64,000 bases of DNA from Bacilli bacterium (lineage in GTDB: Bacteria > Bacillota_I > Bacilli_A > RF39 > UBA660): positions 21,903 to 85,902 of the forward strand of contig JAFWYR010000019.1 of NCBI GenBank assembly GCA_017522615.1. Direction: 5' to 3'. The first letter of the stretch is position 1. The number at the start of each line of letters is the position of its first letter. Shown piece by piece: positions 10,253 through 52,553 of this stretch. The notes beneath the pieces are model-generated. The model did no database searches, had not been told where the DNA came from, and saw only the letters and a program-made list of their open reading frames with translations. Position numbers and translations under genes: made by a program.

Positions 10253-10253
10253 T

Positions 10254-10949: not shown

Positions 10950-11254
10950 GCATTCCATTAGTTATATTTATAATTGCGTTGGTTTTAGTTGTTGTTTTTT
11001 ACAAAGATGTAAGGGCTTTTGTATATTTTGTCGTTATGACAGATATATTTTTAAGGCTTGTGACTTATCTGAAAATAAATATAATTAAAGATACAGCATT
11101 TTCATTTTTGAATGCGATTCCAGCTGATGTTCCAGACATTATTAGATCATTTGATTTAGGAGTTGTAACAGAAATATTGATATTTGTTTATGTTATAACA
11201 TATATAGTGTTTGAAATATTTTTAGTTAGATTATTTGTAAAAAGAAAATTTTAA
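10946..11254 (+). CDS. Small membrane protein, unknown function
   Basis: 102 aa with 3 predicted TM helices; ATGA overlap with the upstream gene. Confidence 0.35.
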   Translation: MSIPLVIFIIALVLVVVFYKDVRAFVYFVVMTDIFLRLVTYLKINIIKDTAFSFLNAIPADVPDIIRSFDLGVVTEILIFVYVITYIVFEIFLVRLFVKRKF

Positions 11255-11284
11255 TAAAAAACAGTTATTATTTTGATAACTGTT

Positions 11285-12130
11285 TTAACTTTTTTTGAAA
11301 TGATAAAGTTTTGTTGTTACAATGTGGACGTTTTTCTTTGTTTTTACCTCTTCATTTGTCAGATTTATTTCATTATTTTCTAAAGGTTTTATTTCTTCAT
11401 TTACCGGATTTATTATAATATTTTCTTTTTTATTATTTTTCTCATTTGATATTGTTTTTTCTATTTGAATGTTTTCAGATTTTATCTCTTTATTATTTGA
11501 GTTATCTTCTATAAAAATTGGATTTTGAGCTTTCTTTTTAAAGTCTTTTTTTACTTTAGCTGTACTTAAGTTAATAAGTTTTGTGATAATTCTTTTACCT
11601 ATTAGTAAAGTCGTCCAAATTGTAAAGGTTATGGTTGTAGATTCAATTAATATAAGTATTTTTTGATTTTTGTATACTTCTTCAGAATAAATGTTTATGT
11701 TGTTAATTATTATTTCATCTAGTGTATATACCATGATAAACATTATTATGGTATAGAAGATTGTATTTATTATTTTTTCATAGTTTTTTTTCTTTTTTTG
11801 AGTTATTAGTTCTAAATATAATATGTTGGATAAAATAATTATTATTACGTATGTAGCAAGATTTGGAAAGAATATTTGCATGAATACATTATTTATAAAA
11901 TTGTCAAATAAAATTGATAGGTAAGTGTTATATTTAAATAATATAAAAAGTATTATAAATCCCCAACTTATTAAAAATAATTTCCTACCAATTGTTTTTT
12001 TTCTTTTGATGTTGATTATGATTGTGGTTAGAAATAATAAGCCTAATATAATGAATATTATAGATTCTTTTGATGAAAATATTATTTCTTTTAAAGTAGA
12101 TAAGAAACTACTTACTGATATTTTAATCAT
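11285..12130 (-). CDS. Polytopic membrane protein with charged C-terminal tail, co-transcribed with the sortase
   Basis: 281 aa, about 6 TM helices, Lys/Glu/Asn-rich tail. Its start overlaps the sortase stop (ATGA). Confidence 0.45.
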   Translation of the reverse strand: MIKISVSSFLSTLKEIIFSSKESIIFIILGLLFLTTIIINIKRKKTIGRKLFLISWGFIILFILFKYNTYLSILFDNFINNVFMQIFFPNLATYVIIIILSNILYLELITQKKKKNYEKIINTIFYTIIMFIMVYTLDEIIINNINIYSEEVYKNQKILILIESTTITFTIWTTLLIGKRIITKLINLSTAKVKKDFKKKAQNPIFIEDNSNNKEIKSENIQIEKTISNEKNNKKENIIINPVNEEIKPLENNEINLTNEEVKTKKNVHIVTTKLYHFKKS

Positions 12131-27237: not shown

Positions 27238-27289
27238 CAAAAAAGATTATAATGTGTTATTATATTTTTGTAAATGAGCTGTGAAAAGG

Positions 27290-27475
27290 AATAGTAATAG
27301 GAATTAATATCTAATAGTGAGTTAGTGGTTAGTGGAAACTAATGGTATTTACCTATGAACGCACCTTGGAGCTTATTCGCGTGTCAGCGTTATTGATGTA
27401 AAGAGCATAGTAAATTCTATGAATTAAGGTGGTACCGCGGGGTAAACTCGTCCTTAGTTTATGGGATTTTTTTAT
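27290..27475 (+). promoter_or_regulatory. T-box riboswitch leader upstream of argS
   Basis: Canonical T-box sequence 'AATTAAGGTGGTACCGCGGGG' at 27422-27442 (compare AANNNGGGTGGNACCGCG). GC-enriched structured leader, followed by a hairpin plus U-run (27467-27473) just 5' of the argS RBS. Confidence 0.7.
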
Positions 27476-27490
27476 ATAGGAGGGATTTTT

Positions 27491-29188
27491 ATGTATAATA
27501 AATTAGAAAGTATTTTAAATGAATCGTTTTCTAAATTAGGTTATGAAGTAAAAAGTAAAGTTATTAAATCAAAAGAAGAAGGGGTAGATTTTCAGTGCGA
27601 CAATCTATTTAAACTTGCTAAAAAATATCATAAAGCTCCTTTTATGATAGGTGATGAGGTTATAAATGATATTAAATCTAGAGGTGATTTTTCTTTATAT
27701 TTTGATAGTATAGAATGCGTTAAACCAGGGTTTATCAATATATGTGTTAGTGATTTGCTTATTAATAACTCTCTAAAGAATCTTATTTCAAAAGATAAGT
27801 TTGGAGTTGAAATAGAAAATAGTACTATAGTTTTGGATTATGGTGGCCCTAATGTGGCTAAACCGCTACATGTTGGTCATTTAAGAACTGCTATTATCGG
27901 ACAAGCTATAAATAATATTTTATCTTTTAAAGGAAATAAGGTTTTAAGTGATGTTCATTTGGGAGATATAGGTACACAAATGGGTCAGGTTATATATGGA
28001 ATACTTGAGGATTATCCTGGTGTAGATTTTAATGATATAGATATTACTTTAGATTATTTAAATGAAACATATCCTAAAATTAGTGGACTTAGTAAAGAAA
28101 ATGAAGAAGTTAGGAATAGATGTCTAGAGATAACTAAAGAACTTCAAAGGCAGCTTCAAGAAGGCACGGGAGAATACTTTACTTTATGGAAAAAAATATA
28201 TGATGTTTCTGTAAAGGATATTAAAAGATTATATGATTTTTTAGATGTTCATTTTGACTGTTGGTATGGTGAAAGTGATGCGTTTAAATACTATGGTGAG
28301 ATGTTTGATTATTTTAAAGATAAAAATGTTTTTAGAGAAGACGATGGCGCTTTAGTTATAGATGTTAAAGAAGAAGAAGATAAAATAGAAATGCCACCAT
28401 GCATAATTAGGAAAAGTGATGGAGCTTATTTATATGCGACTTCTGATTTAGGAACTATTTGGCAAAGAAAAAAAGATTTTGATCCAGATGATATAATTTA
28501 TGTGGTAGATGCAAGACAAAGTTTACATTTTACGCAAATATTTAGAGCAGTTAAAAAATGTGGATTTTATGATGGTGGGTTAGAATTTTGTGGTTACGGA
28601 ACGGTTAATGGAACGGATAATAAGCCTTTTAAAACGAGAAGTGGTGGCTCATTTAAATTAGATGATTTGATAAACGAGGTTAAAGAAGAATTTATTTCAC
28701 TTAGAGAAGAAAATAAACAAATGAGTGAAGAAGATTTATCTAAGATTGTAAATTCAATTATTAAGTTTGCTGATTTACAAAACGATTTAACGAGAAATTA
28801 TATTTTTGATATTAAGAAATTTAGTGAGGTAAATGGTAAAACAGGTCCTTATATCTTATATACTTATTTGAGAATAAGTAAATTATTAAGTGGTAATGAT
28901 GGAACTCTTTCTGATGAAATATATAATGATATAGATAGGAGTTTACGTTTAAAACTTTTAGAGGTTAATGATATTATTGAGTTATCAGCTTTAGAAAGAA
29001 AACCACATTATATTGCTAATTATCTATATGAACTTTCAGTTATTTCAAATAATTTTTATGAAAATAATAAGATGGCAGAAATAGATGAAAAAATTAGAAA
29101 TGATTATGATATAGTTTTAAATTTTAATAATTTAGTTATTAAAACGTTACTTAATTTACTTGGAATATCTATTCCTAGCAAGATGTAA
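27491..29188 (+). CDS. argS: Arginine--tRNA ligase
   Basis: Class I HIGH motif 'PLHVGHLRTAIIGQAI', DALR anticodon-binding C-terminal domain. ATG 27491 with 'TAGGAGGGA' SD. Confidence 0.9.
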   Translation: MYNKLESILNESFSKLGYEVKSKVIKSKEEGVDFQCDNLFKLAKKYHKAPFMIGDEVINDIKSRGDFSLYFDSIECVKPGFINICVSDLLINNSLKNLISKDKFGVEIENSTIVLDYGGPNVAKPLHVGHLRTAIIGQAINNILSFKGNKVLSDVHLGDIGTQMGQVIYGILEDYPGVDFNDIDITLDYLNETYPKISGLSKENEEVRNRCLEITKELQRQLQEGTGEYFTLWKKIYDVSVKDIKRLYDFLDVHFDCWYGESDAFKYYGEMFDYFKDKNVFREDDGALVIDVKEEEDKIEMPPCIIRKSDGAYLYATSDLGTIWQRKKDFDPDDIIYVVDARQSLHFTQIFRAVKKCGFYDGGLEFCGYGTVNGTDNKPFKTRSGGSFKLDDLINEVKEEFISLREENKQMSEEDLSKIVNSIIKFADLQNDLTRNYIFDIKKFSEVNGKTGPYILYTYLRISKLLSGNDGTLSDEIYNDIDRSLRLKLLEVNDIIELSALERKPHYIANYLYELSVISNNFYENNKMAEIDEKIRNDYDIVLNFNNLVIKTLLNLLGISIPSKM

Positions 29189-29370: not shown

Positions 29371-30009
29371 ATGGAATCAAAACACAAAAATGCGTTAATA
29401 GGAGCTTTACTTGCAGTAGTATTTGTAATGGCAGTAGGTTATGCTGCATTTGCTCAGCAACTTACAATCAATGGTACAGCTGAAATCACTTCAAGCTGGG
29501 ATATTCATTATGATCATTCACAAGATACAGTTGATGGTCAAGTAGTTACTAGTCCATCTTGTGTAAGTGGAATGGGTGGTACTACATGTGGTAGTGAATC
29601 TGATACTGCTAATCCTTACGGAACTATCACTTATACTACTGATACTGATGCAACTATTTCAGTTAAGTTAGTTCAACCTGGTGACAAAGTTACTTTCTAT
29701 TTAAAACCTAAGAACTTTGGTACTGGATTAAATGCTACTGGAACTATGTCTATTGCTGATACTACTACATCTGGTTATACAGGAATTACTTTACCTGCTA
29801 CGACAACTGGATTAAAAGCAGCTACTGTTGCAACTAAAGATCATATTCAATTTACAGTAACTCCAACATTTGATAGCAGTTTAGCACCTGGAGAATATGA
29901 TACTATTAAAGTAGAAGCTGAATACTTAAGTAATCAAACTACTAACGAAGTTATTCCACAAACTAAAGCTGGAATTAAAGTATCTATTGATTATACTCAA
30001 GTATCATAA
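29371..30009 (+). CDS. TasA/camelysin-family secreted fibre protein, paralog 1 (SipW-cognate signal peptide)
   Basis: N-terminus 'KHKNALIGALLAVVFVMAVGYAAFAQQLTINGTAEITS' is TasA-like (compare 'GGGTWAAFND...TFASGTLDL'). Core 'VQPGDKVTFYLKPKNFG' parallels TasA 'LKPGDKLTKDFQFENNG'. Own promoter and terminator. Confidence 0.7.
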   Translation: MESKHKNALIGALLAVVFVMAVGYAAFAQQLTINGTAEITSSWDIHYDHSQDTVDGQVVTSPSCVSGMGGTTCGSESDTANPYGTITYTTDTDATISVKLVQPGDKVTFYLKPKNFGTGLNATGTMSIADTTTSGYTGITLPATTTGLKAATVATKDHIQFTVTPTFDSSLAPGEYDTIKVEAEYLSNQTTNEVIPQTKAGIKVSIDYTQVS

Positions 30010-30021
30010 TAATGTTTTGAG

Positions 30022-30049
30022 AGATTACCGTTTTGGTAATCTTTTTTTT
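30022..30049 (+). terminator. Intrinsic terminator
   Basis: 'AGATTACC gtttt GGTAATCT' followed by T7. Confidence 0.65.
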
Positions 30050-30165
30050 GCTTTACACCCCTAGTGTATAGTATTATAATTTTTTGAGTAAACTACTTGA
30101 TGAAGTGTTAAAAAAATGTTATATTCAATTTAGGTTAAATATTTTATGTGTGAGGAGGAATAATT

Positions 30166-30783
30166 ATGGAGGCAAAACACAAAAATATGCTTATAGTTGC
30201 ACTACTTGCTTTAGTTATGATTATGGCCGTTGGTTATGCAGCATTTGCTCAAAATTTAAATATTAATAGTACATCTGAGGTTAGTTCTAAGTGGGAAGTT
30301 AAGATAACTAATATTGCTGTAAAAAAAGTTATGGTTGGTGGAGTAGAACAAGATGATATAACTGGTACAGCTAGTAATAAAACTACTTTTGCAGTTGATG
30401 AGGATTTCCCTTCAACTTCTGCAACAATTAACGAAGCTGGAACTATGGCTAGATTTAGTTCTGAATTAAGATCTCCTGGAGATTCTATAACTTATGATGT
30501 AACTATTACTAATAGTGGAACTTTAAATGCTAAAGTTGGGGATATTCAGTTTGAAGAAGCTAACGCAACAACTCACTGTATTAAAAATGGTACTACTTGT
30601 TTAGAGGATGATCCTATTTATTATGGATTTACAGGTCTTGCTCAAAACGATGTTATTACAGCTAATGGTGGAACTGCTCATGTTTATGTAACTGTAACTT
30701 ACGATGAAAATGTAACTTCACAACCTGAAGCTAATATTGAAAAAGATGCTACTTTAAGAGTAGACTGTGTACAGGCACAATAA
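30166..30783 (+). CDS. TasA/camelysin-family secreted fibre protein, paralog 2
   Basis: 'KHKNMLIVALLALVMIMAVGYAAFAQNLNINSTSEVSS'; core 'RSPGDSITYDVTITNSGTLNAKV'. Confidence 0.7.
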   Translation: MEAKHKNMLIVALLALVMIMAVGYAAFAQNLNINSTSEVSSKWEVKITNIAVKKVMVGGVEQDDITGTASNKTTFAVDEDFPSTSATINEAGTMARFSSELRSPGDSITYDVTITNSGTLNAKVGDIQFEEANATTHCIKNGTTCLEDDPIYYGFTGLAQNDVITANGGTAHVYVTVTYDENVTSQPEANIEKDATLRVDCVQAQ

Positions 30784-30809
30784 AGAACTTTTATATAAGT
30801 TCTTTTTTT
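30783..30809 (+). terminator. Intrinsic terminator
   Basis: 'AAGAACTT ttatat AAGTTCTT' followed by T6. Confidence 0.65.
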
Positions 30810-30866
30810 GTATTGATTGTATTTTTTTTTTATGTTATATTAATAATAGGATAGGAGAGTGTTATA

Positions 30867-31481
30867 ATGGCTAAGCCAAGAAAAGTTGAGAAAAAAGATA
30901 CTAGTAAGGATGAAATTTTTAAGAATGTAATGATTGGAGTTTTAGTTGCAATAATTGTTGTCATGGGACTTGGATATGCAGCTTTTACTCAGCAACTTAC
31001 TATTAATGGTACTGCAGAGATAACAAGTAAATGGGATGTTCATATCAAATCTATTGTTCCTGATAAGAATGCTACTTCAGTTACTGAAGAGGGTAATGTA
31101 AGATATACTTCTGCTGGAAGTATTAGTTCTTCTGTATTAAACGCAAATACAGCTGAATTTTCTGCTGTTTTAGTTGCTCCTGGGGATACTGTTAATTATA
31201 CTGTAACTGTAGAAAATAGTGGGACATTAGATGCTAAAATTGATACTAATGGTATTGTATTTAGTGATTTAACACAGATGAATAAACTAGCTAATAATAC
31301 AGCTGATGATGCTATAGTATTTAGTTATTCTGGTATTGGTGATGGTACTGTTATTAATAAAAATGGTGGAACTAATGTATTTACTATTTCTGTAACTTAT
31401 AATTCTAGATTTACATCACAACCAGAAGGTGGACAACTTAGAAAGAATTTAGAAATGATTTTAAATTATATTCAAGCTTAA
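30867..31481 (+). CDS. TasA/camelysin-family secreted fibre protein, paralog 3
   Basis: 'VMGLGYAAFTQQLTINGTAEITSKWDV'; core 'VAPGDTVNYTVTVENSGTLDAKI'. Confidence 0.7.
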   Translation: MAKPRKVEKKDTSKDEIFKNVMIGVLVAIIVVMGLGYAAFTQQLTINGTAEITSKWDVHIKSIVPDKNATSVTEEGNVRYTSAGSISSSVLNANTAEFSAVLVAPGDTVNYTVTVENSGTLDAKIDTNGIVFSDLTQMNKLANNTADDAIVFSYSGIGDGTVINKNGGTNVFTISVTYNSRFTSQPEGGQLRKNLEMILNYIQA

Positions 31482-31622
31482 TTTATATTAATAAATAAGC
31501 TTTTTTCTGTTTTATTTAAAAAAATAATTTTTATTTTAAAATGTGTTGTAAAAAGAAAAACTATGTGTTATAATTTATTATAGTAGGAGTAGCACGATTG
31601 CTATTTCAAAAGGGGTCATAAT

Positions 31623-32762
31623 ATGAAAAAGAACTTAATCATTTATGGTCTTCTTATAGGTTATTTACTATTGAACACGTTTGTTCTTTTGCCTATGAAT
31701 TTAAATTATTACAATGAAATTATTAATCCTTGTTTATGGATGATGATTTGCGGTGTTAGTGCTTTTCTAAGCAATGGTGCATCGTTAAGAATAAAAGGTG
31801 AAAGAGATAAAATTCAAAGTTTGATAATAGTAATGATAATTTATGTTATTTGTTACTTTTTACTTGGTTTGGTGTTCGGCTTTGAGAAGACTCCGTATGC
31901 TAAGGATGTACTTAGTATACTTCGAAATTTATGGTCGTTTGTAGGAATTGTATTTTTTCAAGAATTTATTCGAGAAACAGTTGTTAGAAATGAAAAAAAG
32001 AATATACTTAATTATTTGATTATTGTTGTACTGTTTACTTTCTTACAATTAAATTTATCAAATTTTGCTTCAAACTTTTCAGATGTTAAAACTACATTTA
32101 TATATGCTTCTACAACTTTGATTCCGGGTTTTTTGGAAAGTGCGATATTGACTTATTTGGTATATATTGGTGGCTTTAAAGCTAGCATTATATATAGACT
32201 ATTTGTAATGGTTCCTCCATTTATTGTACCAATTATTCCTAGTTTGGACTGGTTTGGTATTGCGATGATGGGAATTGTACTTCCTATGGGTGTATATATT
32301 TATTTGAATTATATACATGTTAAAAGGTCAGAACAACTTTCTAGGAAAGAAAGGCGAAAATATAATCCAGTTGTATATGTTCCGGTGTTTGTATTTATCG
32401 GACTATTAGCAGGATTTGTTGTTGGTTTGTTTAAATATCAACCAATAGCAGTTGTTTCTGGAAGTATGTCTCCGACATTTAATAGGGGAGATGCAGCAGT
32501 TATAAGAAAATTAACTACACAGGAAAAGGATAAGCTTAAAGTTGGAGATGTAATCCAATTTGTAAGTGGTACTAAATTTGTTATTCATAGAATTTATGAT
32601 ATTTCAAATGATGAGTATGGAAATAAGCTATTTATCACTAAGGGTGATCATAATAATGCTCCAGATGTTGGTAAGGTACATTTAGAAGAAGTAAAAGGAA
32701 AAGTTTCATTTATTATTCCACTAATCGGTTATCCATCAGTATGGCTTAGTGGAGCAATTTAA
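31623..32762 (+). CDS. Fusion protein: N-terminal ~7-TM membrane domain plus C-terminal archaeal-type signal peptidase I (SipW-like)
   Basis: C-terminal ~110 aa carry the SPase I box B 'VVSGSMSPTF' and 'GDHNNAPD' (box D-like). The N-terminal 270 aa are polytopic and hydrophobic. Own extended -10 promoter 'TGTGTTATAAT' at 31564-31574. Confidence 0.7.
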   Translation: MKKNLIIYGLLIGYLLLNTFVLLPMNLNYYNEIINPCLWMMICGVSAFLSNGASLRIKGERDKIQSLIIVMIIYVICYFLLGLVFGFEKTPYAKDVLSILRNLWSFVGIVFFQEFIRETVVRNEKKNILNYLIIVVLFTFLQLNLSNFASNFSDVKTTFIYASTTLIPGFLESAILTYLVYIGGFKASIIYRLFVMVPPFIVPIIPSLDWFGIAMMGIVLPMGVYIYLNYIHVKRSEQLSRKERRKYNPVVYVPVFVFIGLLAGFVVGLFKYQPIAVVSGSMSPTFNRGDAAVIRKLTTQEKDKLKVGDVIQFVSGTKFVIHRIYDISNDEYGNKLFITKGDHNNAPDVGKVHLEEVKGKVSFIIPLIGYPSVWLSGAI

Positions 32763-32781
32763 TAAGAAGGGGAGAATTTAG

Positions 32782-33891
32782 ATGACAAAAGCAAAGCGAA
32801 AAGAAAATGAAAACAAAGTTATTTTAAAACAGTGGGTTAGGGTATTTATTTTAATTGTTACTATAGCTGTTATGATTACTTCTATAGTTTCAATTGCTAA
32901 ATCTTTAAATCCAGAAGTGATTATGAATAAAAAACTATATTCATATAATTACAATTCTGGTATGAATTATAAGGTATATTTGAAAAACAATAGTTTTTTC
33001 ACTTCGCCTTATATGCCAATGAATAAACAATATATTACTTCAATTATCGATCATATTGAGGTAGAAGCAAAGTATGATTTTACTAGTGATACTGATTTAG
33101 CTTATGACTATAGTTATAGTATTAAAGCTACTGCTAGAGGAATGGCTGAAGACTCTGATGGTAAGAAGATCGATGTATGGTCTAAAGAGTATCCTTTAGT
33201 ACCTGAGACTAAAAATACTGGTACTGGTAGAAAGGTTACTATTTCTAAAACATTTAATGTAGATTATAATTATTATAATCAAGTACTTACTGATTTTCGT
33301 AATCAATTTGGATTATCTGTAGATGCTAGAGTAGATGTTACATTTAATGTTAAGATTAATGGTGGTATGCCTGGCGCTGCGACTAAATCATTACAAGAAA
33401 ATAAATCTATGACTTTACAAATGCCTTTACTTGTTCAAACATTAAAGATTAAACCTGACTTTGTAAATAATGGTGGAGATACAGTATATGAAAAATTAGA
33501 TGATCAAGGTAAAAAGATAGATGTTAATTTATTAGTAATTGGTGTATTATTGTTAGCTGTTTCTATTATTGTACTTATTAAAGTTGGTAAGAGTTTACTT
33601 GTTGTAACTAGAAAATCTGAATATATTTTAGCTGTTAACAAGATTCTTAAAGATTATGGTGACATTATTGCTGAAACTCACAATATGCCTGATTTAAATA
33701 AATATGATATTGTTAATATTAAAAACTTTGTAGATATGGTTGATATCGAAGAAGAATTACATTCACCTATTATCTATTTTGAAATTGAAGAAGATTCTAA
33801 ATGTGTATTCTTGATTCTTAATGAGAATACTGCTTATAGATTCTTACTAAAAGAATCAGATTTCGATCATTTCAACGCTAAATCTAAATAA
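32782..33891 (+). CDS. Bitopic membrane protein (TM near the N-terminus and near residue 250), TasA-locus associated, unknown function
   Basis: 369 aa; TM 'VFILIVTIAVMITSIVSIA' and TM 'LLVIGVLLLAVSIIVLI'; extracytoplasmic beta-rich middle segment; cytoplasmic acidic tail. Coupled 19 nt after the SipW fusion. Confidence 0.45.
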   Translation: MTKAKRKENENKVILKQWVRVFILIVTIAVMITSIVSIAKSLNPEVIMNKKLYSYNYNSGMNYKVYLKNNSFFTSPYMPMNKQYITSIIDHIEVEAKYDFTSDTDLAYDYSYSIKATARGMAEDSDGKKIDVWSKEYPLVPETKNTGTGRKVTISKTFNVDYNYYNQVLTDFRNQFGLSVDARVDVTFNVKINGGMPGAATKSLQENKSMTLQMPLLVQTLKIKPDFVNNGGDTVYEKLDDQGKKIDVNLLVIGVLLLAVSIIVLIKVGKSLLVVTRKSEYILAVNKILKDYGDIIAETHNMPDLNKYDIVNIKNFVDMVDIEEELHSPIIYFEIEEDSKCVFLILNENTAYRFLLKESDFDHFNAKSK

Positions 33892-33900
33892 TAGTATATG

Positions 33901-33925
33901 AAAACGAGATTATATCTCGTTTTTT
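33901..33925. terminator. Bidirectional intrinsic terminator (perfect 22-nt palindrome flanked by A-run and T-run)
   Basis: 'AAAACGAGATATATCTCGTTTT' lies between the convergent genes 32782-33891 (+) and 33910-36042 (-). Confidence 0.6.
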
Positions 33926-36042
33926 ATTTTATTTAATAATGTATTTACTTTATTATTATCTTCATCATATAGTATTATTCTTACATCTGTTTTTATTTTT
34001 TCATCCGTTTTATCTATGTTATCTGAATGAAGTATTTTGGTATATTGATTATTTATTATAGGATATATTTTCCCAAATTTGTTTTTTAATAGTATATTTT
34101 CACCTTTCAAATAAAAATCTTTTAATATCATTAATTCTAGTTTTCCATATATTATTTTTTCAATATTTTTGGAATAATTTAATATTTCATTGTTTGGGAC
34201 TTCTGGGGATAAAGTAACTGCTTTTACATTATATTTATTTAATAGTTTTACACTTTCACTATTGGTAATGTTTAATGTATAGTCAGTTATTATTTCATTA
34301 TCTTTATAATATTTGTTTAAACTACCTAGTTCATTAATTAGTAGTTTTTCATTTTTGTATTTTTTAAAATCTTTTATTATGGATGGAAGTCTATAGTATA
34401 TGTTTAAATCTTTATATTTTTTATAAAGATTATAATCTTCTGTATAAATTCTATCTACTTTATCTTTAATATTTAGTAGTTGTTTTTCTGTTTTAACTTC
34501 TATCGATATTTTATGATTATTAGATATCATTTTTTCCTTTTTATAATTAAATGATACTTTATTATTTGCTTTTGTTCTTTTTTCTATCAATTTATCTATT
34601 AAATTATGTCTTAATTCATTTAGTATTTTTAGTGGAATAAATACATTTTCAATATCAATATTTATATTTTCAATTTTAAATGGGGTATTTCCTATTTTAT
34701 TTAGTTTTTCTTCTATTTCTATTTTTGATGTAGGTCTATTTTTAGCTTTTTCTAATGTTACCGATTTTTTAGTGATTGTGTTTGTGCCATCTGAAATAGT
34801 TAGCGTTAGTGGTTTATTAATGTATCCTTTTAAGTTAAAAGATATGCCTATTTTTTTGTTTGGTGTTTTTCTAATTTCTTTTAATAATTGTATATCTATA
34901 GTTTTATTAATTTCAGTATTTTTTTTAATATTAATTTTGTTATCTATTACAGCTATTTGTCCTTTATCTATGTGATTAACTAATAGTCCTTTTGTATTAT
35001 AAATTTTATTAACTATCATTCCTTTATTTTCATTTATAAATCTTATTCCATCTTCCATGTAGAGGTTATCATCTAGTTTAATATATATTTTTTTATCAGT
35101 TATTTTCGTTGTTTTGCCTAAATGATATCCTATATGATTTGAAGATGATGTGTTGTAGATGTCATTATTAAATAAGTATCCTTTAGTAAATTTTCTATTA
35201 TATAATTTAGCTAAGTTTATAAGTTCTTCTTTTTTTACTTTTGGTATTTTTCCTTCATAATATTCATCTATTAATCTTCTATAAACTTTTGTTACATAGC
35301 CAACGTATTCTGGGCTTTTCATTCTTCCTTCAATTTTTAAACTAGTAATATTTAATGAAAGTATTTTATCTATATTTTCTACTGTGCATAATTCTTTTGT
35401 GCTTAGAGGATATTTGATGTCCAATTTTTTTCCTTCTTGATAAATTTCATATGGTAATCTACATGATCCAACGCATCTTCCGCGGTTACCACTTCTGCCA
35501 CCATTTAGACTAGAAAAAAGACATCTCCCACTATATGATACACATAGAGCTCCGTGAATGAATATTTCAATATCTATATCAGTTTTTATATTTTTGATTT
35601 CATCTATTGTCATTTCACGAGCTAGAACAGCTCTTTTGACGCCGATATTTTTAAGAAATTTTAAACATTCATCATTATGACAATTTGCTTGAGTAGAGGA
35701 ATGTATTTCTAAGTTTGGTATTAGTTTTTTACATAAACTAATCATACCGATATCTTGCATTATTACGGCATCGACTCCTATTTCATATAAATATTTTAAA
35801 TAGTTAATACATTCTTCGATCTCTTTTTCAAATATAACTGTATTTACAGCTACGTATAATTTTACACCATATAGATGAGTATAATAAACTGCTTCTTTTA
35901 ATTTTTCTTTATCAAAGTTTTGAGCAAAGGCTCTTGCACTAAAATTTTCCCCACCTATGTATATGGCGTCAGCACCATTATTTATAGCTGATAATAGTGT
36001 TTCCATATTTCCTGCTGGTGATAATAATTCAATTTTTTTCAT
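33910..36042 (-). CDS. Peptidase U32-family protein (PrtC/YhbU/RlhA-like) with long C-terminal extension
   Basis: 'LLSPAGN...AIYIGGENFSARA', 'EIHSSTQ', and Cys cluster 'CVSYSGRC...RGRCVGSC' are characteristic of U32. 710 aa. Confidence 0.8.
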   Translation of the reverse strand: MKKIELLSPAGNMETLLSAINNGADAIYIGGENFSARAFAQNFDKEKLKEAVYYTHLYGVKLYVAVNTVIFEKEIEECINYLKYLYEIGVDAVIMQDIGMISLCKKLIPNLEIHSSTQANCHNDECLKFLKNIGVKRAVLAREMTIDEIKNIKTDIDIEIFIHGALCVSYSGRCLFSSLNGGRSGNRGRCVGSCRLPYEIYQEGKKLDIKYPLSTKELCTVENIDKILSLNITSLKIEGRMKSPEYVGYVTKVYRRLIDEYYEGKIPKVKKEELINLAKLYNRKFTKGYLFNNDIYNTSSSNHIGYHLGKTTKITDKKIYIKLDDNLYMEDGIRFINENKGMIVNKIYNTKGLLVNHIDKGQIAVIDNKINIKKNTEINKTIDIQLLKEIRKTPNKKIGISFNLKGYINKPLTLTISDGTNTITKKSVTLEKAKNRPTSKIEIEEKLNKIGNTPFKIENINIDIENVFIPLKILNELRHNLIDKLIEKRTKANNKVSFNYKKEKMISNNHKISIEVKTEKQLLNIKDKVDRIYTEDYNLYKKYKDLNIYYRLPSIIKDFKKYKNEKLLINELGSLNKYYKDNEIITDYTLNITNSESVKLLNKYNVKAVTLSPEVPNNEILNYSKNIEKIIYGKLELMILKDFYLKGENILLKNKFGKIYPIINNQYTKILHSDNIDKTDEKIKTDVRIILYDEDNNKVNTLLNKIKNEI

Positions 36043-36138
36043 ATTAAAGTTCCTTTCAAAATTCTCTCATATTATACCATAGTTGATTGACTTATGCATT
36101 TAATTATTTTATAATTTATATAGGATAGGTGATTGGTA

Positions 36139-36558
36139 ATGAAGAAAAAGGGTTTTACTTTAGTCGAATTATTATTAGTTATTGTTATTATAGGATTAAT
36201 TGCGCTTATAGTATATCCATCAATACTTAGAATTATCGGTGATGCGAGAACTAGTTCATATGAAAACCAGGTAAAAATAGTTGAAAAAGCTGCTAGAGCA
36301 TGGGGATATAAGAATGCTTTATTATTACCTGATGGTAGTGGTTCTACTGATAAGGAAAAATACGGCTGTTTAAAATTATCTGTTTTAACATCTGGAGGTT
36401 ATCTTTCTGTAGATGAGGTAAAAGATCCTAGAACTACTGGTAAGAATTTGACTGGTGCGGTTAGAATTTCATATTCTAGTGGACAGTATGTATATGAATA
36501 TGTCGATGAGTTAAATGATTTAATTAGTAATGATAGTAGATGTACGGTTTACAATTAA
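36139..36558 (+). CDS. Type IV pilin / ComGC-like pseudopilin precursor
   Basis: Class III signal 'MKKKGFTLVELLLVIVIIGLIA' (prepilin peptidase site G|FTLVE with Glu+5). 139 aa. ATG 36139 with 'AGGTGA' SD. Confidence 0.75.
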   Translation: MKKKGFTLVELLLVIVIIGLIALIVYPSILRIIGDARTSSYENQVKIVEKAARAWGYKNALLLPDGSGSTDKEKYGCLKLSVLTSGGYLSVDEVKDPRTTGKNLTGAVRISYSSGQYVYEYVDELNDLISNDSRCTVYN

Positions 36559-36592
36559 TCTTAAAAAAAGTATAATGGTAGAGGTGAGTTAA

Positions 36593-37054
36593 ATGGGAGA
36601 TTTTTTGAAAGCACATAGAAAAGGAATTAAAATTGGTTTTCTTGTATTTTTTGTTATTATAATTTTGATTAGTATTTGGTTATTTGTTATGCCAACATTT
36701 AAGAAAAATAAATATGGTGATAGATTAAAAGATTTGAGTAAACACAAGATTTCGAATGAAGTTGTTAATAAAATTAAAGATAAAGCTAATGGTAATGATA
36801 GTGTTAAAAAGATAGATTATAATAGAGAAGGTAGAATTCTTTCTTTTATCATAACTGTCGATAGTAATTTTGGAGTTGATCAAGCTAAGGAATTTGCTAA
36901 AGATATTTTAGATGAGATTAGTGATGATAATAAAAAATACTATGATATTCAAGTATTAATTACTAGTGATGAATTAAGTGATAATTATCCAATTATAGGA
37001 TATAAAAATAAAAATAGTGATGAATTTAAATATGGGAATGCAGGTGGAAATTAA
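36593..37054 (+). CDS. Membrane-anchored protein, unknown function
   Basis: Single N-terminal TM 'IKIGFLVFFVIIILISIWLFVM'; 153 aa; ATGA-coupled to the downstream GGDEF-like gene. Confidence 0.4.
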   Translation: MGDFLKAHRKGIKIGFLVFFVIIILISIWLFVMPTFKKNKYGDRLKDLSKHKISNEVVNKIKDKANGNDSVKKIDYNREGRILSFIITVDSNFGVDQAKEFAKDILDEISDDNKKYYDIQVLITSDELSDNYPIIGYKNKNSDEFKYGNAGGN

Positions 37055-42921: not shown

Positions 42922-43398
42922 ATGAAAAAGTCAGTTGTTTTAATTTGGGTTTTGGTTTCAATTTTATTTATAATGAGTAGTAGTTTTACCATATATGGTT
43001 TGTATTTAAATTTTAGAGAACCAGCAAAACCAGAACTATTAGTTCAGAGTGTTTCTGTTTCTGATACAGAAAATGGTGGTGGTAGTATTGGGAATCCAAT
43101 ATATTCTAATTCTTCTATTACATTTTCATCTTCATTACTAAATCCTGGTAGTAGTGTCACTTATAAGGTAACTTTTAGTAATGATAGTAATAAAGATATT
43201 ATTTTAACTGATTTTGAAAAGTCTACTCCGGAAAGTTCTGATATTAATTTTGAATTAGTAGGAGTGACTAAAGGAAATATTATCTCTAAAAATAGTACTT
43301 TTGATATGTTAGTTAAAATATCTTATGATAGTGAATCAAAAGGAAATACTAAGATTAATACTAATTTAACTGTTAAAGTAGATTACGAGGAAAAGTAA
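42922..43398 (+). CDS. Divergent TasA-like small secreted protein (paralog 5)
   Basis: Signal/TM 'VVLIWVLVSILFIMSSS'. Core 'LNPGSSVTYKVTFSNDSNKDIIL' parallels the '(Q/A/S)PGDxVxYxVT(V/I)xN(S/A)GTL(N/D)AK' motif of the three TasA-like paralogs. Confidence 0.5.
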   Translation: MKKSVVLIWVLVSILFIMSSSFTIYGLYLNFREPAKPELLVQSVSVSDTENGGGSIGNPIYSNSSITFSSSLLNPGSSVTYKVTFSNDSNKDIILTDFEKSTPESSDINFELVGVTKGNIISKNSTFDMLVKISYDSESKGNTKINTNLTVKVDYEEK

Positions 43399-51200: not shown

Positions 51201-52553
51201 ATGAGACAAAGTGGGAGAGATAAAAGAAATTATTTAATTATTGGACTATGTGCCGTAGTAGCAATAATGGCAGTAGGATTTGCGGCATTTAGTCAGCAGC
51301 TAACAATTAATTCAACATCGGAAGTAACAAGTTCATGGTGTGTAGGATTTGATACAAGTAAGACTACTGATTATGTAGCGACTCCAGGACTATCTGGAGC
51401 TACTACACCAACAGCAACAATGTCATATAGTGGAAATACTTGCGGAAGTGATAATCTTCAAACAGGAGCAAGTTTATCTGCAACATTTAAACAACCAGGG
51501 GATCAGGTAGTATATACATTTACAATTAAGAATGCATCAACACTTAATGCCAAATTAGATAGTATAAATGAGAATTTAACAACATCAAATTCAGCTATAG
51601 AGTATGAACTATCAGGAGCTAAGGCAAATGATATTCTTGGGCCAAATGATACTACGACATTAATAGTAACAGTAAGATATAAAGATAGTATAACTAACTA
51701 ACCAGAAGTAACAACATGGGGACTTGAGTTAAAACTTAATTTTTCACAGACAAGTGATTCACCAGTTCCACCAGTGCCTACATATACAGTTAATGATTTA
51801 AAAGCAAATACTGTCACAACAGGAGATGGACTTTATGATAATGGTGATGGAACATATACTTATAAAGGAAGTAATCCTGCTAATTATTTAAGCTTTGCAG
51901 GAAATATTTGGAGAATACTTGGAATAGATTCAACTGGTATTAAAATTATTTCTAATGAAAGAATAGATTTAACAGGTTATTCTGGCGTAGTAGGATCAAA
52001 TAGTTTACTAGGTCAATTTGATGGACAAGGACTTAGAGATTCTTCTAGTAATGGTGCAGGTGGAACATACTGTTCACAAGGGTCATATGGATGTAATATT
52101 TGGTCAAGAGATTATACACCATCTGGAGACTATACAAATGGTAGTTATACAGGAACTGTATTATTAGATTCAGAGCTTAAAACATTTTTAAATGGAACGT
52201 ATTATACTAGTACTCTTAATTCAAATTCAAATATAATAGATGGTACATATAATGTAGGACCATATAATAATGAATCATCATATACATGGACAGGTAAAGT
52301 AGCCCTTTTAACTGCTCCTGAGTATAGGGCAGCAGGAGGCTCATCATCATATCTTAAAAAGTCCTTTAATTGGTGGCTTTTGTCTCCGAGCGCGAGTAAT
52401 GCGTACAGCGTGTTCTGCGTTTATAGTGGCGGCGACATCACGGGCAACGGCGCGCACTACAGCAGTGGTGTCCGCCCTGTTCTCTATCTTTCATCAAATA
52501 TCACACTTTCGGGTTCAGGAACAGACTCTAATAATGCTTTCACAATTTCATAA
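51201..52553 (+). pseudogene. TasA-like protein (paralog 4) fused in frame, across a single TAA, to a C-terminal ~280-aa Gly/Ser/Thr/Tyr-rich domain with a GC-rich 3' end
   Basis: N-terminal 166 aa: 'LCAVVAIMAVGFAAFSQQLTINSTSEVTSSW' plus 'KQPGDQVVYTFTIKNASTLNAKL'. TAA at 51699-51701 sits within '(TAAC)3'. The same frame continues 'PEVTTWGLELKLNFSQ...' to 52553. The final ~150 nt are ~58% GC. Confidence 0.55.

What the first reader, a model, noticed from the sequence alone, without database searches (positions are those of the whole stretch)
29371..33891. Multi-paralog TasA/camelysin-like fibre locus with a SipW-like signal peptidase fused to a polytopic membrane domain
Three consecutive genes, each with its own promoter and terminator, encode ~205-aa proteins. 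Their N-termini and the 'PGDxVxYxVT(V/I)xNxGTL(D/N)AK' core resemble B. subtilis TasA ('GGGTWAAFND', 'KPGDKLTKDFQFENNGSL'). In Bacillus such proteins are processed by the archaeal-type signal peptidase SipW and assemble biofilm/spore-surface fibres. Here the cognate peptidase ('GSMSPT' box, C-terminal 110 aa of 31623-32762) is fused to a ~270-aa, about 7-TM N-terminal domain of unknown function. A bitopic 369-aa protein follows. The tasA(x3)-sipW*-X organisation and the fusion are not the canonical tapA-sipW-tasA arrangement. Together they may represent an uncharacterised fibre assembly and anchoring module.
Basis: partly seen in the sequence, partly recalled or inferred. Interest (0 to 1): 0.8.

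Follow-up and report, generated by a model that had tools for sequence, protein, structure and literature searches.

The report
AbpX-type fibre locus in gut Bacilli
This is a real five-gene module (three secreted fibre-subunit-like proteins, their own unusual membrane signal peptidase and a helper protein) from an uncultured gut bacterium; it belongs to a fibre system first described in a January 2026 preprint, so it is a new example and not a new kind.

Summary
Five same-strand genes lie at 29371-33891: three paralogs (31-35% identical), a 379-aa polytopic protein ending in an archaeal/ER-type signal peptidase I (SPase I), and a DUF5305 protein.

The small proteins are not TasA/camelysin family members. 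Profile comparison places them with AbpX, a TasA-superfamily protein of Pyrodictium abyssi that polymerises by donor-strand complementation.

The "fusion" is not a one-off. It is the normal layout of a large family (876 representatives). It aligns over its full length with the SPase encoded next to abpX. A January 2026 preprint already describes abpX loci with a "ten-TM" SPase I, AbpX-like minor subunits and a DUF5305 accessory protein. The order subunits(1-7)-SPase-DUF5305 recurs in 80 of 80 related gut-Bacilli genomes examined.

Two points go beyond the preprint:
- The 8-helix N-domain has the CAAX-protease (CPBP: Rce1/SpdC) fold but lacks the catalytic histidines. It resembles the non-catalytic scaffolds SpdC and SpbR; SpbR binds a signal peptidase.
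- This clade lacks the acidic donor-strand residue that mediates calcium-dependent assembly in AbpX (1 of 193 subunits).

Verdict: new member of a known kind, moderate interest. Fibre formation itself is inferred, not shown.

The parts
29371..30009 (+). Subunit paralog 1 (212 aa). Signal anchor is residues 9-25; the inferred SPase site is GYA|AF after residue 25, so the mature protein starts at nt 29446. Mature pI 4.4.
   Evidence: ORF; paralogy; family profile E = 2.6e-53; pI and cleavage site.
30019..30045 (+). Terminator-like hairpin plus U-run after paralog 1.
   Evidence: fold -13.1 kcal/mol, z = -5.6.
30052..30080 (+). Promoter-like site TTTACA-17-TATAAT (11 of 12 matches) ahead of paralog 2.
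   Evidence: Consensus match only; such sites are not enriched over shuffles.
30166..30783 (+). Subunit paralog 2 (205 aa). Site GYA|AF after residue 25; the mature protein starts at nt 30241. Mature pI 4.3; D+E 13.9%.
   Evidence: family profile E = 1.3e-64.
30783..30809 (+). Weak AT-rich hairpin (AAGAACTT/AAGTTCTT) plus T-run after paralog 2.
   Evidence: Sequence; fold -8.5 kcal/mol, z = -3.3. The consensus scan missed it because the stem has fewer than 3 G-C pairs.
30867..31481 (+). Subunit paralog 3 (204 aa). It has a longer basic N-region. Site GYA|AF after residue 38; the mature protein starts at nt 30981. This protein was used for the structure model.
   Evidence: AF2 pLDDT 82.7: helix 14-42, disordered 42-57, then a beta-sandwich.
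31474..31506 (+). Weak hairpin (AAGCTTA/TAAGCTT) plus T-run after paralog 3.
   Evidence: Sequence; fold -7.2 kcal/mol, z = -2.3.
31546..31574 (+). Promoter-like site TTGTAA-17-TATAAT with extended TG, ahead of the peptidase gene.
   Evidence: Consensus match only.
31623..32357 (+). N-terminal 8-helix domain of the peptidase (residues 1-245). It has a CPBP/CAAX-protease-like fold with degenerate motifs. Conserved polar residues: N102 (nt 31926-31928), E114 (nt 31962-31964) and R117.
   Evidence: - AF2 pLDDT 89.3, pTM 0.82.
- Conservation in 118 representatives.
- 876 family representatives.
32367..32762 (+). Anchor helix (residues 249-267) plus the archaeal/ER-type SPase I catalytic domain and a short C-terminal hydrophobic helix. 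Ser281 is at nt 32463-32465 and His322 at nt 32586-32588; Asp342 and Asp348 are also conserved.
   Evidence: - TIGR02228: 94.6 bits against a 51.85 cut-off.
- Family profile against human SEC11A: E = 6.9e-24.
- Catalytic residues are invariant.
32782..33891 (+). DUF5305 protein (369 aa) with TM segments at 21-39 and 248-266. Inferred to be an SPase accessory subunit. It starts 19 nt after the peptidase stop codon, with no terminator between the two genes.
   Evidence: PF17231, 2e-18; TM segments; adjacent to the peptidase in 80 of 80 loci; accessory role proposed in the literature.
33900..33924 (+). Terminator-like hairpin closing the module.
   Evidence: fold -10.7 kcal/mol.
51201..52553 (+). 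Unlinked fourth family member. A subunit-like module (166 aa, GFA|AF site) is followed, after one in-frame TAA at 51699-51701, by the family's C-terminal strand, a Pro-rich linker and a DUF6273 domain. It is a candidate tip or adhesin subunit and may be a pseudogene.
   Evidence: Family profile E = 3e-38; in-frame reading; DUF6273 7e-11; an uninterrupted 339-aa counterpart at L039:854-1873.
42922..43398 (+). Distant family member (158 aa) with an N-terminal TM segment but no GYA|AF site. It may be an uncleaved, membrane-anchored relative.
   Evidence: Family profile E = 1.5e-14; sequence. A role in the system is not shown.

Best explanation
The locus is an AbpX-type (TasA-superfamily) surface fibre or matrix module of an uncultured, small-genome gut Bacilli bacterium. 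Steps 1-5 below are inferred from sequence and from homologous systems; none was tested here.

1. The three paralogs are made as precursors with an N-terminal signal anchor and are exported through Sec.
2. The dedicated peptidase cleaves after G-Y-A using its Ser281/His322 site on the outer face of the membrane. A dedicated enzyme is needed because Phe at P2' is poorly handled by LepB-type peptidases, as is known for TasA and SipW.
3. Cleavage frees a new N-terminus, A-F-A-Q-Q-L-T-I-N-G-T-A. This is an amphipathic strand with F2, L6, I8, G10 and A12 in the same register as W2, L6, L8, A10 and I12 of AbpX. The strand inserts into the open beta-sandwich of the next subunit (donor-strand complementation) and builds a fibril. 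The paralogs serve as alternative major or minor subunits.
4. The peptidase's 8-helix N-domain is a CAAX-protease-fold (CPBP) module without the catalytic histidines. Like the non-catalytic homologs SpdC and SpbR, it most likely acts as an in-membrane scaffold that holds the substrate's conserved signal anchor and/or positions and gates the catalytic domain.
5. DUF5305, always encoded immediately downstream, is a two-TM accessory subunit of this peptidase.
6. The acidic donor-strand residue used by AbpX for calcium bridging is absent here, so assembly is probably not calcium-triggered in the AbpX manner.
For: Shown by tool results:
- The ORFs and their paralogy.
- SPase I identity and an invariant Ser/His/Asp set.
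- The peptidase family profile aligns over 312 columns, N-domain included, with the SPase encoded next to P. abyssi abpX (hhalign 99.5%, E = 1.5e-22). It also aligns with an archaeal homolog whose locus holds AbpX-like genes plus DUF5305 (99.9%).
- The subunit profile matches the AbpX profile at 95.1%, E = 3e-8, over 165 columns from signal peptide to C-terminus. AbpX is also the best PDB sequence hit.
- DUF5305 is identified by Pfam.
- The order subunits(1-7)-SPase-DUF5305 is conserved in 80 of 80 genomes, while the flanking genes change.
- The model of the mature subunit has a disordered N-terminal extension (residues 42-57) ahead of a confident beta-sandwich. The preprint reports the same for the AbpX monomer.
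- The cleavage and donor-strand motif is nearly invariant across 193 subunits.

From the literature:
- abpX loci with a 10-TM SPase I, minor subunits and DUF5305 (10.64898/2026.01.04.697558).
- The SPase TafD is required to process TafA, and its gene is paired with a DUF5305 gene (PMC11821415).
- TasA has Phe at P2', which needs SipW and is cleaved poorly by LepB (PMC10269814; abstract shown).
- SpdC is a non-catalytic scaffold (10.1101/2020.05.21.109470).
- The CAAX-like protein SpbR binds and regulates the signal peptidase SpsB (PMC12260438).
Against: - No fibre, no cleavage and no polymerisation has been observed for any member of this gut-Bacilli clade.
- Structure searches with the subunit model returned only generic Ig/PapD-like beta-sandwiches. 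[quoted passage not shown] The fold therefore does not single out the TasA superfamily.
- The AbpX link rests on a weak sequence hit (E = 0.024) plus profile-profile comparison.
- The hallmark acidic residue at mature position 4 is absent (1 of 193). In sister clades the aromatic at position 2 is Leu.
- D+E content is lower than reported for AbpX (median 9.6% against about 15%).
- No cell-wall anchor (LPXTG, SLH or sortase) lies in the module, unlike the bacterial abpX loci in the preprint.
- The CPBP assignment is at fold level only. No PF02517 hit was found in 32 members. Equating E114 with the CPBP motif-1 glutamate is inferred from helix order, not from superposed coordinates.
Confidence: 0.7

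Rival explanations
1. The small proteins are ordinary DUF11/CARDB-like cell-surface or secreted beta-sandwich proteins, for example adhesins or envelope coat components. They need a special signal peptidase but act as monomers or as a 2-D layer and do not form donor-strand fibres.
For: - Sub-threshold hits to DUF11-type repeats (TIGR01451, E = 2.4e-4; DUF7507, DUF7927, CBM39).
- Some homologs are named 'DUF11 domain-containing protein' by NCBI.
- Fold searches return generic Ig-like sandwiches.
- Related genomes fuse the module to adhesin-type domains: DUF6273, DUF285 and BspA LRR_5.
Against: - The profile alignment to AbpX runs full length and includes the signal peptide and donor-strand region.
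- The most conserved part of the family is the 20 residues after the cleavage site, an alternating hydrophobic pattern. This is hard to explain for a monomeric sandwich whose N-terminus is disordered in the model.
- The peptidase and DUF5305 are the same as in loci of proven fibre formers.
Confidence: 0.17
2. The N-terminal 8-TM domain is a catalytically active intramembrane protease. It carries out a second cleavage, for example degrading the released signal peptide or processing another part of the subunit. The enzyme would then be a two-protease machine, not a peptidase with a scaffold.
For: - The fold is that of the glutamate intramembrane protease Rce1.
- N102 (100%), E114 (97%) and R117 (97%) are conserved inside the membrane domain. 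The position four residues after F138, where CPBP motif 2 has its His, is Asp or Glu in 58% of members.
- Active CPBP enzymes act in protein sorting elsewhere (myxosortase, PMC11980579; listed).
Against: - Both histidines of CPBP motifs 2 and 3 are missing. No position in the N-domain has more than 36% His.
- Motif 1 is shortened to E-x-x-R.
- The window protein itself has Gln, not an acid, at position 142.
- CPBP homologs with degenerate motifs (SpdC, SpbR, LnsB) are non-catalytic.
Confidence: 0.08
3. One reading: a TasA/camelysin (Peptidase_M73) fibre system with a SipW ortholog, i.e. a rearranged tapA-sipW-tasA operon.
For: - An A|AF cleavage motif like that of TasA.
- The PGD..N.G motif is shared with TasA.
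- Weak hits to exp_by_SipW_III (E = 0.002) and Peptidase_M73 (E = 0.21).
Against: - All curated TasA and SipW models are below cut-off.
- hhalign to TasA gives 16% over 30 columns, against 88-95% to AbpX over 147-165 columns.
- SipW has no CPBP-like domain. The window enzyme aligns along its whole length with the AbpX-linked SPase.
- No TapA-like gene is present; DUF5305 takes that place.
Confidence: 0.04

Closest known systems
AbpX loci (Pyrodictium abyssi AbpX, PDB 9SJ2 and 9RHP; bacterial examples such as Clostridium amylolyticum), described in bioRxiv 10.64898/2026.01.04.697558
   Same: - Subunits of 160-190 mature residues with an SPase I signal ending in aromatic-Ala, followed by an amphipathic N-terminal strand with an aromatic at position 2 and hydrophobic residues at 6, 8, 10 and 12.
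- Acidic pI.
- The 'PG..V.....N.GT' core motif.
- Several AbpX-like paralogs per locus.
- A dedicated polytopic ('ten-TM') SPase I that aligns over its full length with the window enzyme.
- A DUF5305 accessory gene.
   Different: - An acidic residue at donor-strand position 4 is found in only 1 of 193 subunits, and only one of the five AbpX Ca-binding positions (D18) has a conserved counterpart.
- D+E content is lower.
- No LPXTG or SLH anchor, sortase or regulator lies inside the module.
- Each subunit gene has its own hairpin terminator.
- The host is a mesophilic, small-genome gut Bacilli lineage.
- Similarity to AbpX is detectable only with profiles.
Bacillus subtilis tapA-sipW-tasA (TasA fibres, PDB 8AUR; SipW)
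   Same: - A dedicated archaeal/ER-type Ser/His signal peptidase encoded next to its fibre subunit.
- A cleavage site X-aromatic-A|A-F with Phe at P2'.
- The freed N-terminal strand is used for donor-strand exchange.
- Membership of the same superfamily, according to the preprint.
   Different: - TasA-family and SipW-equivalog models are not met.
- SipW is a short two-TM enzyme with no CPBP-like domain.
- TapA is absent, and DUF5305 is present instead.
Haloarchaeal Tat-fimbriae (tafi: TafA/C/E, SPase TafD, DUF5305 protein TafG; PMC11821415, PMC12337348)
   Same: - Donor-strand fimbriae whose major subunit needs a locus-encoded SPase I. A tafD deletion blocks TafA processing.
- The SPase gene is paired with a DUF5305 gene.
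   Different: - Tafi subunits use the Tat pathway. The window proteins have no twin-arginine motif.
- TafD has four TM helices and an extra C-terminal domain, not an N-terminal 8-TM CPBP-like domain.
Non-catalytic CAAX-protease (CPBP) homologs of Staphylococcus aureus: SpdC (PDB 6U0O) and SpbR
   Same: - SpdC scaffolds a single-pass membrane hydrolase.
[quoted passage not shown] This is the same pairing of protein types as in the window enzyme.
   Different: - In the window enzyme the CPBP-like module is covalently fused to the peptidase, which is of the archaeal/ER type and not the LepB/SpsB type.
- There is no detectable sequence similarity to PF02517.
- Whether the module activates, targets or inhibits the peptidase is unknown.

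Membership tests
TasA / camelysin (Pfam PF12389 Peptidase_M73) | Family HMM at or above the gathering score | tested here: not met
   Only paralog 1 hits, at 11.8 bits against a 22.5 cut-off (E = 0.21). Paralogs 2 and 3 give no hit.
TasA / camelysin (Pfam PF12389 Peptidase_M73) | Detectable homology to B. subtilis TasA along the fold | tested here: not met
   hhalign of the 40-member profile against TasA gives 16% probability over 30 columns (the PGD..N.G motif only). The TasA sequence used was verified against PDB 8aur.
TasA / camelysin (Pfam PF12389 Peptidase_M73) | SipW-cognate signal peptide (TIGR04088) | tested here: not met
   No TIGR04088 hit at E <= 1 for any paralog. The A|AF site itself resembles that of TasA.
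AbpX clade of the TasA superfamily (10.64898/2026.01.04.697558) | Homology to AbpX over the whole protein | tested here: met
   - hhalign against the AbpX profile: 95.1%, E = 3e-8, 165 columns.
- hhalign against the single AbpX sequence: 87.9%, 147 columns.
- AbpX is the best PDB sequence hit, E = 0.024.
AbpX clade of the TasA superfamily (10.64898/2026.01.04.697558) | Aromatic residue at position 2 of the mature donor strand | tested here: met
   Phe in all three window paralogs and in 147 of 151 subunits of the window's clade. Sister clades have Leu (41 of 42). The cleavage site is inferred, not measured.
AbpX clade of the TasA superfamily (10.64898/2026.01.04.697558) | Acidic residue at position 4 of the donor strand (calcium bridge) | tested here: not met
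   Gln, Thr or Ser at this position; an acidic residue occurs in 1 of 193 subunits.
AbpX clade of the TasA superfamily (10.64898/2026.01.04.697558) | Low pI (about 4) with about 15% Asp+Glu | tested here: inconclusive
   The window paralogs have pI 4.3-4.6 and D+E 9.6-13.9%. The clade median is pI 4.30 and D+E 9.6%.
AbpX clade of the TasA superfamily (10.64898/2026.01.04.697558) | Adjacent dedicated polytopic ('ten-TM') SPase I | tested here: met
   The window enzyme's family profile aligns with the SPase next to P. abyssi abpX over 312 columns, 99.5%, E = 1.5e-22.
AbpX clade of the TasA superfamily (10.64898/2026.01.04.697558) | Jelly-roll subunit that polymerises by donor-strand complementation | not testable with these tools
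   The monomer model shows a beta-sandwich with a disordered N-terminal extension. Fold hits are generic. No multimer prediction was available.
Archaeal/ER-type signal peptidase I (TIGR02228; Sec11/SipW type) | Family HMM above cut-off | tested here: met
   94.6 bits against 51.85, residues 251-376. The family profile hits human SEC11A at E = 6.9e-24.
Archaeal/ER-type signal peptidase I (TIGR02228; Sec11/SipW type) | Catalytic Ser and His (not Lys) plus conserved Asp residues | tested here: met
   S281, H322, D342 and D348 are 100% conserved in 118 representatives and invariant in alignment A3.
SipW equivalog (NF046067) | Equivalog HMM above cut-off | tested here: not met
   68.7 bits against a cut-off of 190.
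CPBP / type II CAAX protease (Rce1, Abi; PF02517) | Eight-TM CPBP fold | tested here: met
   [not shown]
CPBP / type II CAAX protease (Rce1, Abi; PF02517) | Family HMM match | tested here: not met
   No PF02517 hit at E <= 1 in any of 32 diverse members.
CPBP / type II CAAX protease (Rce1, Abi; PF02517) | Catalytic motifs EExxxR, FxxxH and HxxxN/D | tested here: not met
   - The fourth helix carries E114-x-x-R117 (97% each).
- F138 is 69% conserved, but the position four residues later is E, D, N, S or Q.
- No His in the N-domain exceeds 36%.
- The motif correspondence is by helix order only.
Exosortase / archaeosortase | Conserved Cys-Arg-His active site in a polytopic domain, and a family HMM match | tested here: not met
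   No Cys in the N-domain exceeds 16% and no His exceeds 36%. No NCBIfam exosortase or archaeosortase hit at E <= 1.
DUF5305 (PF17231), proposed SPase I accessory subunit | Family HMM above cut-off, two TM segments, and a gene adjacent to an SPase I gene | tested here: met
   67.1 bits against 29. TM segments at 21-39 and 248-266. Follows the peptidase gene in 80 of 80 loci. The accessory function itself is a literature hypothesis.

The most novel reading that the evidence does not exclude
The AbpX-type signal peptidase is a built-in two-part sorting machine. A CAAX-protease-fold module has lost catalysis but keeps an invariant intramembrane Asn-Glu-Arg site. It captures the conserved signal anchor of the fibre subunits (the 'KN...MAVGYA' segment) and hands it to the fused Sec11-like catalytic domain, with DUF5305 as a third subunit. 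This would be a prokaryotic counterpart of multi-subunit signal-peptidase and gamma-secretase-style complexes, in which a CPBP-derived scaffold (APH-1) partners a protease. In the gut-Bacilli clade the product would be a calcium-independent fibre, built from a rapidly expanding set of 1-7 paralogs plus adhesin-tipped variants, that mediates host or community attachment by these uncultured, small-genome commensals.
Probability: 0.3. Interest if true: 0.65.

Novelty: new member of a known kind. Interest (0 to 1): 0.45.

Why it matters
- It extends the newly defined AbpX branch of TasA-like donor-strand fibres from hyperthermophilic archaea and a few Clostridia to a large group of uncultured, reduced-genome gut Bacilli. 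At least 197 species-level genomes encode the peptidase. Nothing is known about the surface structures of these organisms.
- It gives the unexplained "ten-TM" peptidase a structural reading. The enzyme is a catalytically degenerate CAAX-protease-fold domain fused to a Sec11/SipW-type peptidase. Staphylococcus aureus pairs the same two kinds of protein in trans (SpbR-SpsB).
- That reading yields testable residues (N102, E114, R117) and a testable idea of substrate selection.
- The absence of the calcium-bridging residue suggests a variant assembly trigger.
- None of this changes the category. The system type is already described.

Tried and rejected
1. TasA, camelysin and SipW family membership: curated HMMs and hhalign are below threshold.
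2. Exosortase/archaeosortase similarity of the N-domain: no HMM hit and no conserved Cys or His.
4. Sequence-level link of the N-domain to CPBP: no PF02517 hit in 32 members, and no Rce1 or SpdC hit in a PDB profile search at E <= 10.
5. The first genome scan with the 32-member alignment failed because no block was conserved enough. It was repeated with 11 closer sequences. The best 80 loci were therefore all gut Bacilli, so the Clostridia loci named in the preprint were not retrieved.
6. A search with AbpX itself found only 7 proteins. It was still enough to fetch the P. abyssi locus.
7. Invertible-promoter or phase-variation repeats around the paralogs: none convincing.
8. Prophage or mobile-element origin: composition is uniform, and the locus is syntenic between argS and a U32 peptidase gene in close relatives.
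9. My first count of Phe at P2' (146 of 146) was circular, because the search pattern required an aromatic there. It was redone without that requirement.

Full report
**What is there**

The window is 26-30% G+C throughout. It carries housekeeping genes around the finding, including a T-box leader and argS just upstream. The peptidase ORF is 100% identical to a protein that NCBI records as "MAG: signal peptidase I [Bacilli bacterium]".

- 29371-30009: small protein, 212 aa.
- 30166-30783: small protein, 205 aa.
- 30867-31481: small protein, 204 aa.
- 31623-32762: polytopic protein with a peptidase domain, 379 aa.
- 32782-33891: 369-aa protein.

The three small proteins are 31-35% identical to one another. 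They share an almost invariant N-terminus, K-N-x-x-I-G-x-L-x-A-x-x-x-x-M-A-V-G-Y-A-A-F-A-Q-Q-L-T-I-N-G-T-A, and the core P-G-D-x-V-x-Y-x-V-x-x-x-N-x-G-T. At DNA level the first 131 nt of each gene form a 69-72% repeat family.

Each small gene is followed by a hairpin plus U-run (-13.1, -8.5 and -7.2 kcal/mol). The last gene has one too (-10.7 kcal/mol). The peptidase and the 369-aa gene are only 19 nt apart with no hairpin between them. Promoter-like hexamers precede genes 1-4, but such sites are no more frequent than in shuffled sequence. Two corrections apply: the membrane domain has 8 helices, not about 7, and "own promoter" remains a plausible reading only.

**The peptidase**

Residues 251-376 pass NCBIfam TIGR02228, archaeal-type signal peptidase I (94.6 bits, cut-off 51.85). 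They fail the Bacillus SipW equivalog (68.7 bits against 190). A family profile hits human SEC11A and SEC11C at about 1e-23.

An HMMER search with the N-terminal 255 residues alone, against 1.8 billion cluster representatives, found 876 relatives. Nearly all full-length ones are 375-400 aa with the same layout. The "fusion" is therefore the family's normal architecture.

In 118 full-length representatives, S281, H322, D342 and D348 are 100% conserved. Within the membrane domain N102 is 100% conserved and E114 and R117 are 97% conserved. No His exceeds 36% and no Cys exceeds 16% there. That removes an exosortase-like Cys/His site.

AlphaFold2 gives a confident model (pLDDT 89.3, pTM 0.82). It has eight helices, then the peptidase anchor helix, the beta-rich catalytic domain and a short C-terminal helix.

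| Part of model | Best matches |
|---|---|

No member hits Pfam PF02517, so the CPBP relationship is at fold level only. Of the CPBP motifs (EExxxR, FxxxH, HxxxN/D), the family keeps a shortened E-x-x-R on its fourth helix and often the Phe of motif 2. Both histidines are gone. Matching these motifs by helix order is my inference.

**The small proteins**

Pfam and NCBIfam give only sub-threshold hits: Peptidase_M73 E = 0.21, exp_by_SipW_III E = 0.002, DUF11 repeat E = 2.4e-4. Homologs are numerous but unnamed, or labelled "DUF11 domain-containing".

A 40-member profile finds AbpX (PDB 9sj2 and 9rhp) as its best solved relative, at E = 0.024. I rebuilt the AbpX precursor from the preprint's supplement and checked it against the PDB chain; 163 of 163 residues matched. 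I collected its few homologs and compared profiles:

| Comparison with the small-protein profile | Probability | Aligned columns |
|---|---|---|
| AbpX profile | 95.1% (E = 3e-8) | 165, from signal peptide to C-terminus |
| AbpX single sequence | 87.9% | 147 |
| B. subtilis TasA (sequence verified) | 16% | 30 |

The proteins are therefore AbpX-like, and TasA-like only at superfamily level.

The precursors line up strikingly. AbpX reads ...A-I-G-L-T-Y-A|Q-W-S-E-T-L-S-L-S-A-T-I. The window proteins read ...M-A-V-G-Y-A|A-F-A-Q-Q-L-T-I-N-G-T-A. F2, L6, I8, G10 and A12 fall in the register of W2, L6, L8, A10 and I12, which dock in the acceptor groove of AbpX.

**The last gene**

It is a DUF5305 protein (PF17231, 2e-18) with two TM segments. 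DUF5305 is TafG of the haloarchaeal Tat-fimbriae locus. It is paired with, and sometimes fused to, SPase I genes. The AbpX preprint proposes it as an SPase I accessory subunit.

**Link to the published system**

The preprint (bioRxiv 10.64898/2026.01.04.697558) makes these statements:
- AbpX-like proteins form a clade of the TasA superfamily in Thermoproteota, Bacillota and Chloroflexota.
- Their dedicated SPase I "possess[es] ten transmembrane helices".
- Most loci also encode AbpX-like minor subunits, tip proteins and a DUF5305 accessory protein.
- Its Clostridium amylolyticum example has AbpX, two AbpX-like minor subunits, the SPase and DUF5305.

I fetched the P. abyssi locus. A 380-aa SPase gene lies just downstream of abpX. 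The window enzyme's family profile aligns with it over 312 columns, including the membrane domain and the E-x-x-R motif (99.5%, E = 1.5e-22). A second archaeal locus, with an AbpX-like gene, a second small ORF of unassigned family, a 411-aa homolog of the enzyme and DUF5305, aligns at 99.9%. The window module is thus the same kind of system.

**Distribution and conservation**

A scan of one genome per species found 197 genomes with a relative of the peptidase. The best 80 are all uncultured gut or rumen Bacilli, some with complete chromosomes of 1.3-1.5 Mb (Candidatus Coprosoma, CAG:822, CAG:710, "Tenericutes" UMGS bins).

In 80 of 80 loci the peptidase gene is followed by DUF5305; in three of them one subunit gene lies between. 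One to seven subunit paralogs lie upstream in most loci. Several loci with no subunit gene sit at contig ends, where upstream DNA is missing.

The flanks (argS, a U32 peptidase, a type IV pilin-like gene and a GGDEF protein) are shared only among close relatives. The subunits-peptidase-DUF5305 core is therefore the functional unit.

Across 193 distinct subunits the inferred site is G-Y-A | A-(F 76%, L 23%)-A-(Q/T)-Q-L-T-I-N-G-T-A. An acidic residue at position 4, which AbpX uses for calcium-mediated strand docking and which the preprint calls strongly conserved, occurs once in 193. Mature proteins are acidic (median pI 4.3) with about 10% D+E.

**How it most likely works**

The genes, the family assignments, the conserved catalytic residues, the conserved synteny and the predicted folds are shown. 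The steps below are inferred from homologous systems:
1. The precursors are exported through Sec.
2. Ser281/His322 cleave after G-Y-A on the outer face of the membrane. A dedicated enzyme makes sense because an aromatic P2' residue is cleaved poorly by LepB-type peptidases and TasA needs SipW (PMC10269814; abstract shown).
3. The freed amphipathic N-terminus serves as a donor strand that links subunits into fibrils. The paralogs act as alternative or minor subunits.
4. The CPBP-fold domain lacks the catalytic histidines. It most likely works as an in-membrane scaffold or substrate-selection module. SpdC scaffolds the hydrolase SagB without catalysis, and the CAAX-like SpbR binds the signal peptidase SpsB and controls what it cleaves (PMC12260438).
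5. DUF5305 is a third, accessory subunit.

Because the acidic position-4 residue is missing, assembly is probably not triggered by calcium in the AbpX manner.

**Rivals**

- Monomeric DUF11-like surface proteins.
- An active second protease in the N-domain.
- A true TasA/SipW operon.

These are weighed in their own sections. The first cannot be excluded without multimer modelling or microscopy.

**Novelty and score**

The system type, including the polytopic peptidase and DUF5305, was published as a preprint in January 2026. This is therefore a new member of a known kind. Four things are new here:
- The host range: abundant, uncultured, small-genome gut Bacilli.
- The size and turnover of the paralog arrays.
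- The loss of the calcium-bridging residue.
- The identification of the peptidase's membrane domain as a degenerate CAAX-protease fold. I found no paper stating this.

I score interest at 0.45.

Noticed in passing
window 51201-52553 (+): A fourth subunit-like gene (166 aa, GFA|AF site, E = 3e-38 to the family profile) ends at a TAA (51699-51701). That codon sits where the family has its near-invariant Gln of 'T-x-Q-P'. The same frame continues with the family's last strand ('PEVTTWGLELKLNFSQ'), a Pro-rich linker and a DUF6273 domain (ORF 51774-52553). Read through, it would be a protein of about 450 aa and a candidate tip or adhesin subunit. It could be a CAA>TAA pseudogene, an assembly error or read-through; this is not resolved.
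   Followed up: partly
L039:854-1873; L043:4409-5431; L065:1413-2891 and 9817-11295: In related genomes the subunit module (signal, donor strand and sandwich) is fused to adhesin-type C-terminal domains: DUF6273, DUF285 and BspA-type LRR_5. These may be fibre tip or display subunits.
   Followed up: partly
window 42922-43398 (+): A 158-aa distant relative of the subunits (E = 1.5e-14) has an N-terminal TM segment but no G-Y-A|A-F site. It could be an uncleaved, membrane-anchored acceptor (a fibre base). This is only a lead.
   Followed up: no
window 36133-39081 (+): A type IV pilin-like gene (N_methyl motif, 141 aa), a 153-aa membrane protein, and a 675-aa SBP_bac_3 + GGDEF protein whose active-site motif reads N-G-N-E-F (degenerate). 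They are syntenic with the fibre module only in close relatives.
   Followed up: partly
window 33910-36042 (-): A convergent 710-aa peptidase U32 / DUF3656 ('collagenase'-type) gene lies directly after the module's terminator. It holds the same position in 37 of 80 related loci.
   Followed up: partly
window 27272-27458 (+): A T-box leader (133 bits) lies in front of the 575-aa ORF read as argS (27461-29188), immediately upstream of the module.
   Followed up: no
L001 and L055 (7 paralogs) compared with L005, L006 and others (2 paralogs): The number of subunit paralogs between argS and the peptidase gene ranges from 1 to 7 among otherwise syntenic genomes. This suggests rapid duplication and loss, as expected for a variable surface antigen.
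   Followed up: partly
L056, L062, L064 and L067-L076: In sister clades the inferred P2' residue is Leu, not Phe (G-Y-A|A-L-A-Q). One subunit gene can also sit between the peptidase and DUF5305 genes, or downstream of DUF5305.
   Followed up: partly
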